Positions 5,012 to 61,966 of a DNA stretch of 64,000 nucleotides are shown here, piece after piece. The notes beneath the pieces were generated by a model, which ran no database searches, was not told where the DNA came from, and saw only the letters and a list, made by a program, of their open reading frames with translations. A program made the position numbers and the translations under genes. Every line of letters starts with the position of its first letter. Position 1 is the first letter of the stretch. Source of the stretch: Octopus vulgaris (taxonomy: Eukaryota). The stretch spans positions 124,000,001 through 124,064,000 of the forward strand of contig OX597815.1 in NCBI GenBank assembly GCA_951406725.2, given 5' to 3'.

Positions 5012-5058
5012 CCACTAAGTCACGTGATTTCGATCTTATTGGATCACTTCAGTGGTGG
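5012..5058 (-). ncRNA. Degenerate minimal hammerhead-like motif
   Basis: Minus strand: ccacca CTGAAG-T GATC caataa GATC GAAA TCACGTGA CT tagtgg. Palindromic stem III; core A9 and cleavage triplet damaged. Confidence 0.45.
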
Positions 5059-5574
5059 GTACTCGTTTGCTAGGCATGGCATTAGTCTATGTATATATAT
5101 ATATATATATATATATATATATATATATATATATATATATATTAGTCAATGTATAGTCAATGTATACAGTGTCATATAATCTCTGATCTCGTAACTAGCA
5201 AATCTCTGTTCGAGCCAGAAGCAGTTTACGAACCAAAAGGTATTGTTTATCGCCACTTTGATATGGGAGTTCCCTAGGAACCGACGATACTGATATTTTA
5301 ATGATACTGCTATTACATTATATATTATATTATATTACATATTATATTATATCATATATCATATTGTATGTTATATATATTGCGGAGCCACAGCAGTCTT
5401 ATACTACATCCACATTAAGTAGGATACACTGACATTCAGTGATAATGCTGCATCCGTCGCTAATATCTGATATATGTATATATATATATATATATATATA
5501 TATATATATACATATATATATGCAACAAAAGTGATGCACATATGGTTAGATAGTATTTCTTTTCTTTTATTCTT

Positions 5575-6480
5575 TTGTGTTTCAGCCCACAAGCTGTAGT
5601 CATCCTGGTGCACCTTACTCTAAGCACCTGTTCAATGGCCATTCTTATGCGACTGGCTTTTGGTAAAAGAAGGAGCTCGACATTGCTCTCCTCTTTTGAG
5701 TTTCTTGCCGTAATGTAGGTTCATCTGGGACCTTGGGCAGCAGGAGGTCAAGTTTTTTCTTAAAAACTTCTGTTCTTACTCATGAAGATCCTTCAGATGT
5801 TTTGACAAGGCAATAAATGGCGGTGGGCTCTTGAATTCCAGCTACTGCAGTGCATGGTTCTTACTTTAGACGGGATAATGCAGTAAAGTTCAGTTCAGGA
5901 GCTGGTATAGCTCTCAATGCCAAAGTTTGGTGACAACCCCTCCAGGACCTTCCATACGTATATTATTGCATACCTCTCCCCTCTTCAGTCCAGGGAGTAG
6001 AGATATAGTTCTTTCAGAATTTCTCAGCAACTCAGCTGTTCAATTGATGCAATCTTTCAGGTGTTGTGCAGCTGAACTGCCTGAAAATCCGCTATTAATT
6101 CGACACTGTGGGGTGAACACAGCTGAGAGCAGTAGTCTAGACGTTTGAGTACAAATGTCCTCTATAGAACCAGCATGGTTTTCTGGTCCCTTGTTCTGAA
6201 AGTTCTCAGAATCCATCCCGTCATTCGCCTGTACACTGTCACCATCTTGGTGGTGATATGTACGTGAAACAAGGAATTGTTGCTTATATCAATCCTCAGA
6301 TCACGCAATTCTTGGCCCAAAATATTATTGTTGCGGTATGCGAGTACTAGCTAGCTGATAGCGGAGGGTTTGGAATTTCCCTGCATTAAATTTCGTGTTA
6401 TTTTCTTCAGCTCATTTATATGTGCCATCTAGGTCTTTCTATAGAAGATTAGCATCGGAAATATCCTTGACTGCTTGTGG
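5575..6480 (-). mobile_element. CR1-group LINE, decayed 3' part of ORF2
   Basis: Manual translation gives RRMTGWILRTFRTRDQKTMLVL*RTFVLKRLDYCSQL...LYSL..R.ERY.IIYVWKVLEGL.PNFGI, typical of the CR1/L2 post-RT region; multiple stops. Confidence 0.85.
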
Positions 6481-8009
6481 CTGTCTGTGTAACTGAAGGC
6501 ATGTCCAAAAGGGCCACTATAAGCTGCAGCGGCCCCACTGTCCGTGGAGAGGGCTCTATTGGCTTCTCTCTTTTAAGAAGCCTTGTAACTACTCTCTCAG
6601 TTTTCCGACTATGCCAAGTCCCCGTATTTATATATTTTCAAAATAACTTTCTTTCTCTCCGTCCCTTCATCGTCCCCCACTCTTTCTCTCAGTGCGTGTG
6701 CCTGTCTCCACGTTCTCTCTAATACACGCACACATTTTTAACCCCCCACCCCCACCACATTTATATTCGATTTCCGAAGCTAGTATATTCTGAGGCTCTC
6801 TGCATATAAAAAACAGTAGATTTTACTGATATACTGAATTTTCGATCATCTCTAAAGCAATTACACCTATTTTGTTCTTAGATTTTCGGAAGTACAAAAA
6901 TCATATTTCATTTATCCTATAATGGTAACACGGAAATAATATATTTAGGTAATGTTGCAAGACGGCACAGAAAGGTTACAAATATTTTATTCTTGTGAAT
7001 ACATAACAACTTTTTTTTTACTAAGAAGGGTTTCGTTTTAAATGTCATTTATGATGTATTTGTATTCTGTATTTATAATGGCCACATAACCTGATGAATT
7101 TAATCCACTTAGTGTCAGAAGATGTAAGAAACAAAAGGTTTCTCCTGGAAATGTATGAATTAATAATGTTTTTGGAGTCATTTTACTTTGAATTTGGTAG
7201 AGTGTAAACTGAGGAAGTTTTATTAAAATTACCTTTTATTTCATTGACCTCGCTTCCATGTTTACATCATAAATGTCGCAGTGTTTTAGTCAGTTCATTG
7301 TTTGTTGAGAATGACATTTATTCTCCTTTCTGAAGTAACAAAGAATTTTAAACAAGCAGCTTCTGCAACGCTTTTGTCTGATGTGTTTCCTGTAAATTTC
7401 GCACTATAAGAATCATACCTCCCAAAGAAATGATCAGAGTTCATTTGGCATCTATTTTTATTTCAAACTTGTACGGAATGACCAATTTAGTTTTGCTAAC
7501 ACAAACAACCGAAATTCCTTTTGACTTCAAATTATTCTAATTTTAAAAGGTTAGTGCTAAAAACGATGAAGATTTTATGTACAATACCGTTCGAAAATGC
7601 AAGAACCCTTGCTATAAAAATAACAGTGTTTATTTAAAACTCCTCCGTCTGGCCTGGTTTAGGTACAGAGGCAGAAGTCTGTTCCGGGCAACTAAATATT
7701 TAGATACGACAAAAGAAAAAAATTCGAGTATAATACAACACACGTAATTTAGTGTTCATCTTTTATTACTATTACTTCTGTGTAAATAACTGTTCAAAGA
7801 AATCAAAGAATAAAACAAGACTTTAAGAAACTTATTGAGATTTTGAAATGACGTATCAGAAAACAATCATACATGATTCAGAAAAACAATCAATGTAGTA
7901 ATCAGGATAATTAATACATAATAGATACATTGTTTAATAAACTGAGTCAATTGAATGCCTTCCTCATGTTGAGCATTCCATAAACAAAGCAAATAGTTCC
8001 TGATCTTAG

Positions 8010-8305
8010 ATCATCATCATCATCATCTTCTTCTTCTTCCTCTTCTTCTTCTTCTTCTTCTTCTTCTTCTTCTTCTTCTTCTTCTTCTTCTTCTTCTTCT
8101 TCTTCTTCTTTCTTCTTCTTCTTCTTCTTCTTCTTCTTTTGCTTCTTCTTCTTCTTCTTCTTCTTCTTCTTCTTCTTCTTTTCTTTTTCTTCTTCTTTTC
8201 CTTCTTCTTCTTCTTCTTCTTCTTCTTCTTCCCCCTCCCCTTCTCTCCCTCCCCTCCCCTCCCCCTCATCTTCCCCTCCCCCTCCTCTTCCCCCTCCTCC
8301 TCTTC
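8010..8305. repeat. (TCA)n-(TTC)n-(CCCCT)n polypyrimidine tract
   Basis: Visible triplet array grading into C-rich repeats; gives the poly-K/R and poly-L/F pseudo-ORFs. Confidence 0.95.
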
Positions 8306-9000
8306 TAAGTATTTCAAAGCCAACACAAGGCTGGCATTCTTCAGACTGAGTAGAGATCGTTCATACCAATGGAACTAAAACTCGGTGTCTGAAGGGGCTT
8401 CAAAATCGTCGTGGGTTGAACTTATGCTACGTTTCTCATGAAGCCTCGTAACATCTCATGGCGTGAGAGCAAGGCCAAAGAACAATCTTTATAATGAATC
8501 TATAAATCTAGCACCAGTTGCACCAAAATAGATATGTAGTTGTTCAATTAATAGAGCTACGTACTCACTATATCGGATTGTAAGTAGATGAATATTCCAC
8601 ATACAGTTGTACCTTCTGCATTATTTTCAAGTACAATCAACGACACAGCTTGTTGCAAGGCTGGGTCTTAACATTACAGATATAGTACATACAATGGCTT
8701 CCACAGTTCCTGCCTCGCCCTTTTAACTTAAAATGTTTGCATTGACACAGAGGTATAGTAGAAAATACTTTCCACAAGCATATATTAATTCATGTATTTA
8801 TGCAAGTAAATATATATCCAACCTTACTTGTACTTCAAAATCAAGCATGCAGATATGGAGGATGGTTCATGGAAATGACTAATAAGCCACCCATTTAATT
8901 TTTTGTTTACACTTTTACCGTTTTGAAAAGCAGCCCCTTTTTTCAACGGTTTTTCTTATAAGACTGACAGAGATATTTGAGTTTAACCCTAGGCGTTAAG

Positions 9001-9057
9001 AGTCACTGATGAGGATTGAGATGGTTTACATCAAAATCCAAAATCGTCGATCCGACT
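9001..9057 (+). ncRNA. Degenerate hammerhead-like motif (PLE-type)
   Basis: agtca CTGATGA GGATT gagatggtttacatcaa AATCC AAAA TCGTCGAT C cgact. G12 appears mutated to A; near-palindromic stem III. Confidence 0.55.
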
Positions 9058-60420: not shown

Positions 60421-60450
60421 CTCACACACACACACATGTGAATATATATA

Positions 60451-60719
60451 TAAATGCGCCCTTTTAAAACCTAGCCTGGCTCATGGACCCGGTTTCCCGA
60501 TTTTAATGGCGTATGTGTTCCCCAGCGTATGTGTTTCCCAGCGTATGTGTTCTCTAGTCCATCGCAGCGTTACTCATTTTTGCCAGCTGAGTGGACTGGA
60601 GCAACGTGAAATGAAGTGTTTTCCTCAAGAACACAACGCGTCACCCGGTCCAGGAATCGAAACCACAATCTTACGATCATGATGCTGACACCCTAACCAC
60701 TAAGCCACGTGCCTCCACA
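60451..60719 (-). mobile_element. tRNA-derived SINE family C (Meta/MESC-like central domain, tentative)
   Basis: Minus GTGGAGGCACGTGGCTTAGTGGTTAGGGTG...TTCGATTCCTGGACCGGG...GTTGCTCCAGTCCACTCAGCTGGCAAAAATGAGTA. Confidence 0.8.
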
Positions 60720-61652
60720 TGTATATATATACATACATACAGAGAGAGAGAGATAGAAAGAGAGAGAGAGAGAGATGGATAGATTGATAGATAGATGTAG
60801 ATACACATATATGCATACATGCATACGTATGTATGAGTGTGTGTATATATATGGTGTGAAGATGCATACGCACATTCATACACATATATGTATGAATGTA
60901 TGTAACGAAAGAGAGAGAAAGCAGTGTGAGACATACTTATACACGATAAATGCAGACAATAAATGCGAAAACGAGGATATAAATACATAAGCATATGTGG
61001 ATATAGACCCTTCAAACAATTATATCTATGTCTCCTGCTCCAATAGAATTACAATCTCAGAACACATAGTAAATTATACAAGATAACATATGTAAACAAA
61101 TCAAATCTGATACAGAAAATGGCCAATGTTGGAACGAACCTGTCCATATCAATCTATGCAAATATTGATATACAATATGAAGGACAGCTTTTCTTTGAAT
61201 CTTCAAATATAATAGGGTATCTCTCTCTATATATAAATATATGAATGCCTGTGTACGTGTGTATGATGTACGTATGTATGTGGATAAATAACGTGTTGTA
61301 AATAATTATGTACACACATATATATTCATATGTATATTATATAATATATATATATATATGTATATATATATAAATGTATATATATATATATATATATATA
61401 TATATATATATATATATATATATATATATATTTCAATACGGAGCAAATAATTCACGAAAAAATAATTCGCGAAGTTATCACTGACGCTGTTATTATCCAG
61501 TGTAACAATTTAAAAATGATAATAACAAAATCAGTAATATAGGCGATTGCAGGTCCGAAAAGGCATTAAATAGCTGAAGGATTAAAATTAATCAATATAT
61601 ATATATATACTGATTGATACGGAGATGGAGTGTAACTAGAAGCTTTGTGTAG

Positions 61653-61740
61653 CACAACAATCGTTTTGGCTGCTCTAGTGGGTGGGGAACGATGTAATGC
61701 CATCAGATGCATCGCACAGCACAGAGAGCCTCATCATGTG
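61653..61740 (-). ncRNA. Degenerate hammerhead-like motif, long stem II
   Basis: Minus: cac ATGATGA GGCT-CTCT...AGAGCAGCC AAAA CGATTG TT gtg; C3 and G12 mutated. Confidence 0.45.
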
Positions 61741-61925
61741 ACGTAACATACTTCAAAAGTTATAAGATTTACATATTTCGCTCCACGTTTGATGCTTGTG
61801 GTGTTATGGCGTGTTGCTAGCTGTTCACACACAATGTGTTAGAAAATCTCTATAAGAGATGAAAGCAGTAAATATATATTGCGAGCTGGAGTCAACTACT
61901 GCTATCTCTAGCGGATGAGTATCCA

Positions 61926-61966
61926 CTACCGAAGATGACCCTAAAGTGGTCGAAGCTCTTCGGTCT
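61926..61966 (+). ncRNA. Degenerate minimal hammerhead-like motif
   Basis: CCGAAGA T GACC ctaaagt GGTC GAAG...GTC; resembles CTGAAGA-T-stem-GAAA with two core changes and no clear stem I. Confidence 0.35.

What the first reader, a model, noticed from the sequence alone, without database searches (positions are those of the whole stretch)
5012..61966. About 11 hammerhead-like and 2 HDV-like motifs in 64 kb of apparent junk DNA
Seen: HHR-like motifs at 5012(-), 9001(+), 9931(+), 22738(-), 24699(+), 25197(-), 25285(+), 56762(-), 58315(+), 61653(-) and 61926(+), from several unrelated sequence families, plus HDV-like folds at 13380 and 16859. Established: PLEs carry minimal type I HHRs with palindromic stem III, and RTE/R2/R4 LINEs can carry HDV-like ribozymes. 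Inference: this genome may hold a very large and diverse ribozyme load, much of it invisible to standard descriptors because of variant cores or long stem II.
Basis: partly seen in the sequence, partly recalled or inferred. Interest (0 to 1): 0.7.

Follow-up and report, generated by a model that had tools for sequence, protein, structure and literature searches.

The report
Genome-wide hammerhead load from Penelope-like elements
This stretch of animal DNA holds 14 mostly decayed copies of a hammerhead RNA motif that likely cuts itself, left by ten jumping-gene families; sampling suggests about 100,000 intact copies genome-wide, none found by the standard RNA library where tested, while the two proposed HDV-type ribozymes did not hold up.

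Summary
All 11 hammerhead sites are real but come from 8 insertions; only 3 of 11 are intact (shuffles 0.04 and 0.20 palindromic hits). Both HDV calls fail. 13380 is a twelfth, deleted hammerhead. 16859 is an RTE LINE leader with no HDV fit. A missed inverted pair lies near 55816.

Five families are 3' ends of Penelope-like elements (PLEs). Four are circularly permuted units of about 335-355 nt, like retrozymes.

In 120 evenly spaced 10-kb stretches, 49 intact canonical or U3-A8 hammerheads occur against 4.3 shuffled. That gives about 104,000 per 2.8-Gb genome (65,000-153,000), or about 240,000 with decayed copies. Rfam's thresholds found 0 of 30.

Amplified families carry fixed odd cores: U4C, A9U and, outside the window, A6U. 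These are known kinds at a very high load; cleavage is untested. The scan already noted hammerhead PLEs and retrozymes elsewhere in this genome.

The parts
5012..5057 (-). Family H hammerhead, decayed (U at position 9 as in its subfamily; U16.1 changed; one stem I mismatch), in a retrozyme-like repeat with a ~353-nt unit spanning about 4847-5196
9000..9057 (+). Family E hammerhead, decayed (G12A, 1-nt insertion in stem III), in a retrozyme-like repeat with a ~335-nt unit (8955-9198)
9377..9631 (+). PLE GIY-YIG endonuclease C-terminal remnant of Hydra type, upstream of the family D hammerhead
   Evidence: tblastn E 2e-20
9931..10017 (+). Family D hammerhead: canonical core, 58-nt stem II, 8-nt palindromic stem III; stem I broken in this copy; element 9264-10051
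13367..13410 (+).
16840..17060 (+).
22738..22796 (-). Family C hammerhead, U3-A8 core, long stem II damaged in this copy; 3' end of the PLE remnant
23134..24317 (-). 5'-truncated Hydra-type PLE RT-endonuclease remnant, with an inverted copy of its endonuclease end at 24184-24498(+)
24699..24765 (+). Family C hammerhead in the inverted arm of the same insertion; stem III broken
25197..25232 (-). Family B hammerhead, intact: U3-A8 core, 4-bp stem II, 6-nt palindromic stem III, predicted cut between 25200 and 25199
25285..25320 (+). Family B hammerhead, inverted partner, stems I and II damaged
55802..55846 (.).
56401..58620 (-). Family A insertion: 5'-truncated 3' part of a young Hydra-type PLE plus a 507-bp inverted copy (arms 56566-57072 and 58114-58620, 99%), set in microsatellite
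56762..56871 (-). Family A hammerhead, intact: canonical core, 85-nt stem II hairpin, 8-nt palindromic stem III; predicted cut between 56765 and 56764
58315..58424 (+). Family A hammerhead, intact, in the inverted arm; predicted cut between 58421 and 58422
61653..61740 (-). Family F hammerhead, decayed (C3A, G12A, 14-nt deletion in long stem II); PLE 3' end (61611-61836)
61923..61971 (+). Family G hammerhead, U4C family core, stems I and III decayed here; retrozyme-like unit of ~355 nt (61839-62140), related to family H

Best explanation
The sites are mostly decayed genomic copies of type I hammerhead motifs carried by Penelope-like retroelements and by short non-coding repeats that PLE enzymes likely mobilise; the intact master copies are predicted to cut their own RNA. 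Shown: hammerhead anatomy in the families; PLE RT/GIY-YIG remnants upstream in sense for families A, B, C, D and F; fixed or clustered 3' ends with ragged 5' ends and adjacent inverted copies; circular permutation with a 335-355 nt period for E, G, H and I. Inferred: in PLEs the ribozyme trims the element RNA out of read-through or tandem transcripts, likely as a dimer through the palindromic stem III. In E, G, H and I, cleavage likely releases a unit-length RNA that circularises and is copied from a fixed site into more-than-unit insertions. After insertion most copies decay, so the load is a fossil record of many bursts rather than a set of host-serving ribozymes. There is no HDV ribozyme at the two sites named.
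For: Strict hits exceed shuffles in the window and in 1.2 Mb (34 canonical vs 0.6; 15 U3-A8 vs 3.7). With stem III left unconstrained, 33 of 39 real hits are palindromic, against 0.9 of 6.9 in shuffles. Majority rows of 8 of 9 window families pass the descriptor; E fails at one CpG-prone stem I pair, while 2 of 19 E copies pass. Related families swap whole stem III palindromes and one stem II pair while keeping the pairing (G vs H, E vs I). Non-CpG core positions differ from the majority less often than same-base non-core positions (58 vs 99.7 expected, 7 families). PLE links: family A window copy is 98% identical to the 3' part of L111, which holds an RT-CxCX5C-GIY-YIG ORF; C and D remnants lie in the window; B in L035, L054 and L055, and F in L158. 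Permutation: 9 of 19 E, 7 of 19 G, 4 of 19 H and 8 of 18 I copies, against 0 in A, B, C, D and F. The same layout is described in PMC4209133, PMC8557442 and PMC7229834.
Against: No cleavage or expression data. Only 2 of 53 strict hits in the sample have a PLE ORF remnant within 1.5 kb upstream, no more than random positions (1.9%), so the PLE link rests on a few long copies per family and a small protein panel. G and H show 0 of 20 PLE hits and I 1 of 20; their PLE mobilisation is inferred from end structure only. Hammerhead-constrained folds lie 2-9 kcal/mol above the MFE for 7 of 7 monomers. Circular-unit folding is strong for I (z -2.4 to -5.8) but weak for H (-1.3, -1.4) and mixed for E (-2.0, -0.2). 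Interiors of long stems II fold only modestly better than shuffles (mean z -0.9, 13 cases). Family loci were the copies most like the window copy, which biases state counts. One U3-A8 hit was a chance match in an abundant SINE.
Confidence: 0.85

Rival explanations
1. The hammerheads are passengers: PLE-type elements spread whether or not the ribozyme cuts, so many master elements carried dead or nearly dead motifs.
For: Families with non-consensus cores were amplified. A6U: 9 of 12 sample copies and 17 of 17 parsed among 20 near copies. U at position 9: 13 of 19 H copies. C4: 14 of 19 G copies. PMC8557442 raises the idea that HHRs simply parasitise PLEs.
Against: Cores are conserved more than neighbouring bases. 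Palindromic stems III are rebuilt with different sequences in sister families. The variant families keep perfect stems and vary at N7, the free position. Canonical and U3-A8 cores far outnumber broken-core controls (C3U 0, G8A 3, G5A 2).
Confidence: 0.3
2. A fraction of the intact copies has been co-opted by the host, for example to cut introns or UTRs, so the load has host function.
For: About 10^5 intact motifs are estimated. Copy-level core conservation does not by itself separate selection on masters from selection after insertion.
Against: 11 of 14 window sites are decayed. Lesions are CpG-type and scattered. Copies often sit in inverted pairs whose arms would pair with each other. Intactness is highest in the youngest family (27 of 28 A copies against 1 of 19 H copies).
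Confidence: 0.08
3. The motifs are chance matches in AT-rich, repeat-rich DNA.
For: U3-A8 hits have a shuffled background (3.7 per 1.2 Mb). One hit fell in a SINE with 171 copies in the sample. The HDV-like patterns are at chance level.
Against: 34 vs 0.6 for canonical cores; family majority rows fold as hammerheads; unconstrained stem III is palindromic in 33 of 39.
Confidence: 0.02
4. The RTE 5' leader at 16840 is a self-cleaving RNA of a class other than HDV that defines the element's 5' end.
For: Most of the 30 copies start within a few bases of the same site after a microsatellite and can form a three-way junction followed by a second stem. RTE elements elsewhere use HDV-like ribozymes (PMC6765202 passage).
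Against: Folding z is only +0.7 to -1.9. No Rfam ribozyme match at E<=10. The copies are too alike to test covariation. The shared start is partly due to the query starting there.
Confidence: 0.12

Closest known systems
PLE (Penelope-like element) type I hammerheads (Cervera and de la Pena 2014, PMC4209133; parts 1-2 of 4 read)
   Same: Type I topology, palindromic stem III, optional extra base after A9, mostly single truncated copies, inverted pairs 100-700 bp apart, many families per genome, and the U3-A8 covariant core (about 1,300 in Schistosoma mansoni).
   Different: Many families here have stems II of 41-85 nt and stem III palindromes of 6-10 nt. The estimated count (about 104,000 intact) is over ten times the 4,000-9,000 reported there for coelacanth and Xenopus tropicalis, though descriptors differ.
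Hydra clade of PLEs (Craig et al. 2021, PMC8557442; section 11 and passages read)
   Same: C-terminal GIY-YIG with a CxCX5C linker, CxxC and CxH motifs flanking the conserved E and N, insertion next to (TA)n, adjacent inverted 5'-truncated copy, and a hammerhead in the 3' end (family A; C and D by protein similarity).
   Different: The family A hammerhead lies about 2 kb past the ORF and has an 85-nt stem II. The paper describes Hydra elements as generally under 3 kb with canonical hammerheads. No phylogeny was run here.
Metazoan non-LTR retrozymes (Cervera and de la Pena 2020, PMC7229834; passages read)
   Same: Non-coding 335-359 nt units with a type I hammerhead (6-bp stem I, 4-bp stem II), tandem or permuted copies, and self-paired units (families E, G, H, I and the L233 array).
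   Different: Mostly monomers or 1-1.5-mers rather than long arrays. Family-wide U4C and A9U cores. Circular RNA and cleavage not shown.
Natural hammerhead core variants (Perreault et al. 2011, PMC3088659; section 8 and passages read)
   Same: U3-A8 is active. U4C is known from a viroid, with reduced in vitro activity. A6C is known from one phage, with low activity.
   Different: Here U4C, A9U and A6U are the majority states of amplified repeat families. A6U and A9U were not found for hammerheads in my searches.
HDV-like ribozymes of RTE and R2 LINEs (review PMC6765202, passages read)
   Same: Position at the 5' end of an RTE-type LINE (16859).
   Different: No P1.1-P4-J4/2 arrangement with a catalytic C recurs across the copies.

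Membership tests
Type I hammerhead ribozyme | Core CUGANGA (or U3-A8) ... GAAA ... UH with stems I-III, ends joined in stem I | tested here: met
   3 window copies pass; majority rows of 8 of 9 families pass, G and I with C4 and H with U9
Type I hammerhead ribozyme | Covariation in stems | tested here: met
   Different palindromes and a swapped stem II pair in sister families G/H and E/I; stem III palindromic in 33 of 39 unconstrained hits. Read from alignments; no formal covariation statistic.
Type I hammerhead ribozyme | Self-cleavage 3' of H17 | not testable with these tools
   needs a bench assay
Type I hammerhead ribozyme | Match to Rfam hammerhead models at gathering score | tested here: not met
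   0 of 30; 3 sub-threshold HH9 matches (15.6-22.9 bits against 52) among 18 short loci. This shows the limits of the models, not of the anatomy.
Penelope-like element (families A, B, C, D, F) | RT plus C-terminal GIY-YIG ORF upstream of the hammerhead, in sense | tested here: met
   L111, window remnants for C and D, L035/L054/L055 for B and L158 for F. F rests on 1 of 20 loci.
Penelope-like element (families A, B, C, D, F) | Fixed 3' end, variable 5' truncation, adjacent inverted copy | tested here: met
   (inverted partner within 1.4 kb: A 11 of 28, B 2 of 21, C 12 of 24, D 4 of 19, F 3 of 19; 5' extents of A were masked by low-complexity DNA)
Hydra clade PLE (family A) | CxCX5C linker; CxxC and CxH around E and N | tested here: met
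   L111 translation
Hydra clade PLE (family A) | RWK and DKT motifs; placement in an RT phylogeny | not tested
   The L111 ORF is 5'-truncated; no tree was built
Non-LTR retrozyme (families E, G, H, I) | Non-coding unit of 150-450 nt with a type I hammerhead, in tandem or permuted copies | tested here: met
   periods of about 335, 355, 353 and 345 nt; full tandem pair in L136
Non-LTR retrozyme (families E, G, H, I) | Highly self-paired circular unit | tested here: inconclusive
   58-65% paired; z from -0.2 to -5.8 over 7 aged copies; L136 z -3.1
Non-LTR retrozyme (families E, G, H, I) | Expressed as linear and circular monomer RNA | not testable with these tools
   needs RNA from tissue
HDV-like ribozyme (13380 and 16859) | Nested double pseudoknot P1-P4 with P1.1 and catalytic C in J4/2 | tested here: not met
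   13380 is a hammerhead family

The most novel reading that the evidence does not exclude
This genome carries one of the densest ribozyme loads on record (about 37 intact hammerheads per Mb, dozens of families, unseen by Rfam). Its amplified families with A6U, U4C and A9U cores are active, tuned variants that widen the accepted hammerhead core. If instead they are dead, a roughly 20,000-copy A6U family shows that PLE-type elements spread without cleavage. Either result bears directly on the open question of what PLE hammerheads are for.
Probability: 0.35. Interest if true: 0.7.

Novelty: new member of a known kind. Interest (0 to 1): 0.5.

Why it matters
Hammerhead counts for cephalopods in the papers found are tiny or absent: 235 Rfam hammerhead-1 hits in giant squid (PMC6962438 passage), and no mention of ribozymes in the main text of a 2026 octopus repeat annotation (PMC13282606, word search). 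The estimate here is about 10^5 intact motifs. That approaches the axolotl total (126,247; PMC7229834) in a genome about a tenth the size (axolotl size recalled). The role of PLE hammerheads is still unclear (PMC8557442). Sister families here differ at normally invariant core positions yet were all amplified, which gives a natural series for testing whether cleavage is needed for spread. Hammerheads also offer a handle for classifying short unclassified repeats.

Tried and rejected
Rfam scan of the whole window at E<=5: the 150 rows shown of 276 were almost all microsatellite or hairpin matches to miRNA models, and 126 rows were not shown. Repeat finder on the whole window: swamped by microsatellites; only the inverted-repeat list was useful. 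Pfam does not recognise the Hydra-type ORFs (0 families for L111, P0001 and P0007), so they were typed by motifs and by tblastn with 18 proteins. HDV descriptor: chance level. A first total of 268 hammerhead-related copies was cut to 97 after dropping cluster 11 (171 copies of a SINE whose majority row is not a hammerhead); 7 window-family copies were added, giving 104. The single SINE hit remains among the 15 U3-A8 strict hits, within the shuffled background. Intact U4C (1) and A9U (3 vs 0.9) hits in the sample are not above background; these variants rest on family alignments. Search for other strand orders with intact strands and stems of at least 4 Watson-Crick pairs: 18 type I and 1 other in the sample, 0 in the window; it cannot see the core-opened form described in earlier scan notes. 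Lunse, Weinberg and Breaker 2017 on PLE hammerhead variants is not held and may already list U4C, A9U, A6U or long-stem variants. No supplements were read; those of PMC4209133 and PMC8557442 may list cephalopod motifs.

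
Full report
Setting. The window is G000:C2:124000001-124064000 of a 2.80-Gb assembly. It is AT-rich and microsatellite-rich. An octopod is likely: one PLE homologue is named from Argonauta, and I recognise the SINEs from memory. This was not verified.

Observation. A strict type I hammerhead descriptor finds 3 motifs in the window: 56868(-), 58318(+) and 25229(-). Local dinucleotide shuffles give 0.04 canonical and 0.20 U3-A8 palindromic hits. I searched the genome with ten window stretches covering the listed sites. 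Each is a dispersed repeat, with 226-2,461 first-look candidates. Aligning the nearest 18-28 copies gives nine hammerhead families, A-I. Majority rows of 8 of 9 pass the descriptor. E fails at one CpG-prone pair, but 2 of 19 E copies pass. The share of intact copies runs from 27 of 28 in young family A to 1 of 19 in H. Projecting 120 intact motifs from other loci onto the window recovers all 11 listed sites, the 13380 site and a missed inverted pair near 55816. That makes 14 sites from 10 insertions, because A, B, C and the new pair are each an element with an inverted arm.

HDV calls. The 13380 family folds as a hammerhead with a C at position 4; the window copy lacks 6 nt of the core. 16859 is the leader of an RTE-type LINE whose APE and RT remnants follow (clade recalled). 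An HDV descriptor hits neither coordinate and fires at chance level (11 against 3-27). A looser version finds no solution shared by more than 5 of 30 RTE copies or 2 of 20 family I copies. Rfam shows no HDV or twister match at E<=10.

Carriers: PLE ends. The family A window copy is 98% identical to the 3' part of L111. L111 holds an RT-GIY-YIG ORF with a CxCX5C linker and CxxC/CxH motifs, has a frameshift near its end, and is flanked by an inverted arm. These are features of the Hydra clade (PMC8557442 section 11). Families C and D have Hydra-type remnants in the window itself. B has a collinear GIY-YIG remnant ending 500-820 nt upstream in 3 of 21 loci, and F has an RT-endonuclease remnant in L158. 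The families show clustered 3' ends and, where measurable, ragged 5' ends.

Carriers: retrozyme-like repeats. In E, G, H and I the sequence upstream of the hammerhead is the family's own downstream sequence, with periods of about 335, 355, 353 and 345 nt (9 of 19, 7 of 19, 4 of 19 and 8 of 18 copies; 0 in the other five families). This fits non-LTR retrozymes (PMC7229834). Stem I extends into a long rod (L183). A young 359-nt array with 7 hammerheads lies in L233. G, H and I show no sense PLE remnant upstream (0, 0 and 1 tblastn hit of 20), so mobilisation by PLE enzymes is inferred from end structure. Earlier scan notes e1-8663039 and e1-8666193 read similar repeats the same way; they are leads, not support.

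Genome load. In 120 evenly spaced 10-kb stretches the descriptor finds 34 canonical hits (24 stretches; shuffled 0.6), 15 U3-A8 (3.7), 1 U4C (0.1) and 3 A9U (0.9). Canonical plus U3-A8 extrapolates to about 104,000 (bootstrap 65,000-153,000). Adding decayed relatives, after dropping a 171-copy SINE cluster, gives 104 copies, or about 240,000 (184,000-308,000) genome-wide. The window's 3 intact motifs are typical of the genome. Its 14 total sites exceed the sample mean of 5.5 per 64 kb (P 0.018), but the window was searched more deeply. The 53 strict hits form 25 clusters, several of them likely chance singletons. Only 5 of 53 match the nine window families. Rfam gathering thresholds found 0 of the 30 hits in 15 loci chosen to hold them. 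15 of 53 have a stem II/loop longer than 30 nt. Published totals I saw: about 2,000 plus 1,300 minimal motifs in Schistosoma mansoni, 4,000 in coelacanth and 9,000 in Xenopus tropicalis; over 6,000 in coral, about 5,000 in mussel and 126,247 in axolotl; 235 in giant squid. Descriptors differ, so the comparison is rough.

Non-circular checks. With stem III unconstrained, 33 of 39 real hits are palindromic, against 0.9 of 6.9 shuffled. Sister families replace whole palindromes (G vs H; E vs I, with 6-12 nt between A15.1 and U16.1) and one stem II pair. Non-CpG core positions differ from the majority 58 times against 99.7 expected from same-base neighbours. I read this as selection on master elements, but it does not exclude later selection. 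Against: PLE remnants are not enriched upstream of strict hits overall (2 of 53 against 1.9%); long stem II interiors fold only modestly (mean z -0.9); and monomer hammerhead folds lie 2-9 kcal/mol above the MFE, which would fit a need for dimers.

Variant cores. U3-A8 (B, C and the missed pair) is known and active. C4 is the majority state in G (14 of 19) and I; CCA and CTG states are both CpG-decay products of CCG, which points to C4 in the masters (inference). U4C is known from a viroid, with lower activity. H has U at position 9 in 13 of 19 near copies. Outside the window, one family has A6U with intact stems and a variable N7: 9 of 12 sample copies (about 20,000 genome-wide by extrapolation) and 17 of 17 parsed among 20 near copies; one of the 20 has a short PLE match upstream. 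Searches for A6U or A9U with hammerhead returned only listings of twister and riboswitch papers, which I did not open. The most relevant paper (Lunse et al. 2017) is not held, so novelty here is provisional.

Mechanism. Shown: anatomy, carriers, decay and abundance. Inferred: master RNAs self-cleave at H17, likely through stem III dimers in tandem transcripts; PLE RT copies them from the 3' end, giving truncated and inverted insertions; retrozyme-like units likely pass through circles. Inserted copies then decay, and inverted arms would pair with each other in read-through RNA.

Papers seen: PMC4209133 parts 1-2 of 4; PMC8557442 passages and section 11; PMC3088659 passages and section 8; PMC7229834, PMC6765202, PMC13282606 and PMC6962438 passages only; no supplements. 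My searches for a cephalopod hammerhead census found none.

Verdict. The hammerhead observation and the load inference hold; the HDV part does not. These are new members of two known kinds at a very high load, with untested core variants. Interest 0.5.

Noticed in passing
L291:450-500 and L371-L390: Young repeat family, outside the window, with a hammerhead fold whose core has a fixed A6U change and a variable N7; about 20,000 copies by extrapolation; its 3' end runs into (TA)n.
   Followed up: partly
L233:2300-4800 (G000:C1:20.00 Mb): Near-identical 359-nt tandem array with 7 canonical hammerheads, 5 in one direction and 2 inverted; unit folds as a circle with z -3.9.
   Followed up: partly
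window 16840-16940: RTE leader with a sharp start after (TATG)n, a possible three-way junction and a second stem; fits no Rfam ribozyme; function unexplained.
   Followed up: partly
L111: Family A PLE has about 2 kb of non-coding sequence between the ORF end and the hammerhead, long for the Hydra clade; the element is young (98-99% identical copies).
   Followed up: no
window 30003-31623: Tc1-like DNA transposon: 223-bp inverted ends (95%) around a DDE_3 transposase remnant.
   Followed up: no
window 55883-56245: Mariner-like transposase remnant (recognised by eye, no Pfam hit) next to the family A insertion.
   Followed up: no
window 14651-14910, 29264-29467, 33683-33938, 36895-37124, 45807-45919: Very abundant SINE (171 copies in 1.2 Mb) that contains hammerhead-like words and hairpins but whose majority row is not a hammerhead; a trap for descriptor counts.
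   Followed up: yes
window 53142-53317 and 54581-54810: Another inverted pair of short repeats beside PLE fragments at 54815-55791; no hammerhead found in it.
   Followed up: partly
L312:6175-6398 and L252:7041-7112: Rfam U3 snoRNA and tRNA matches above threshold in the sampled loci.
   Followed up: no
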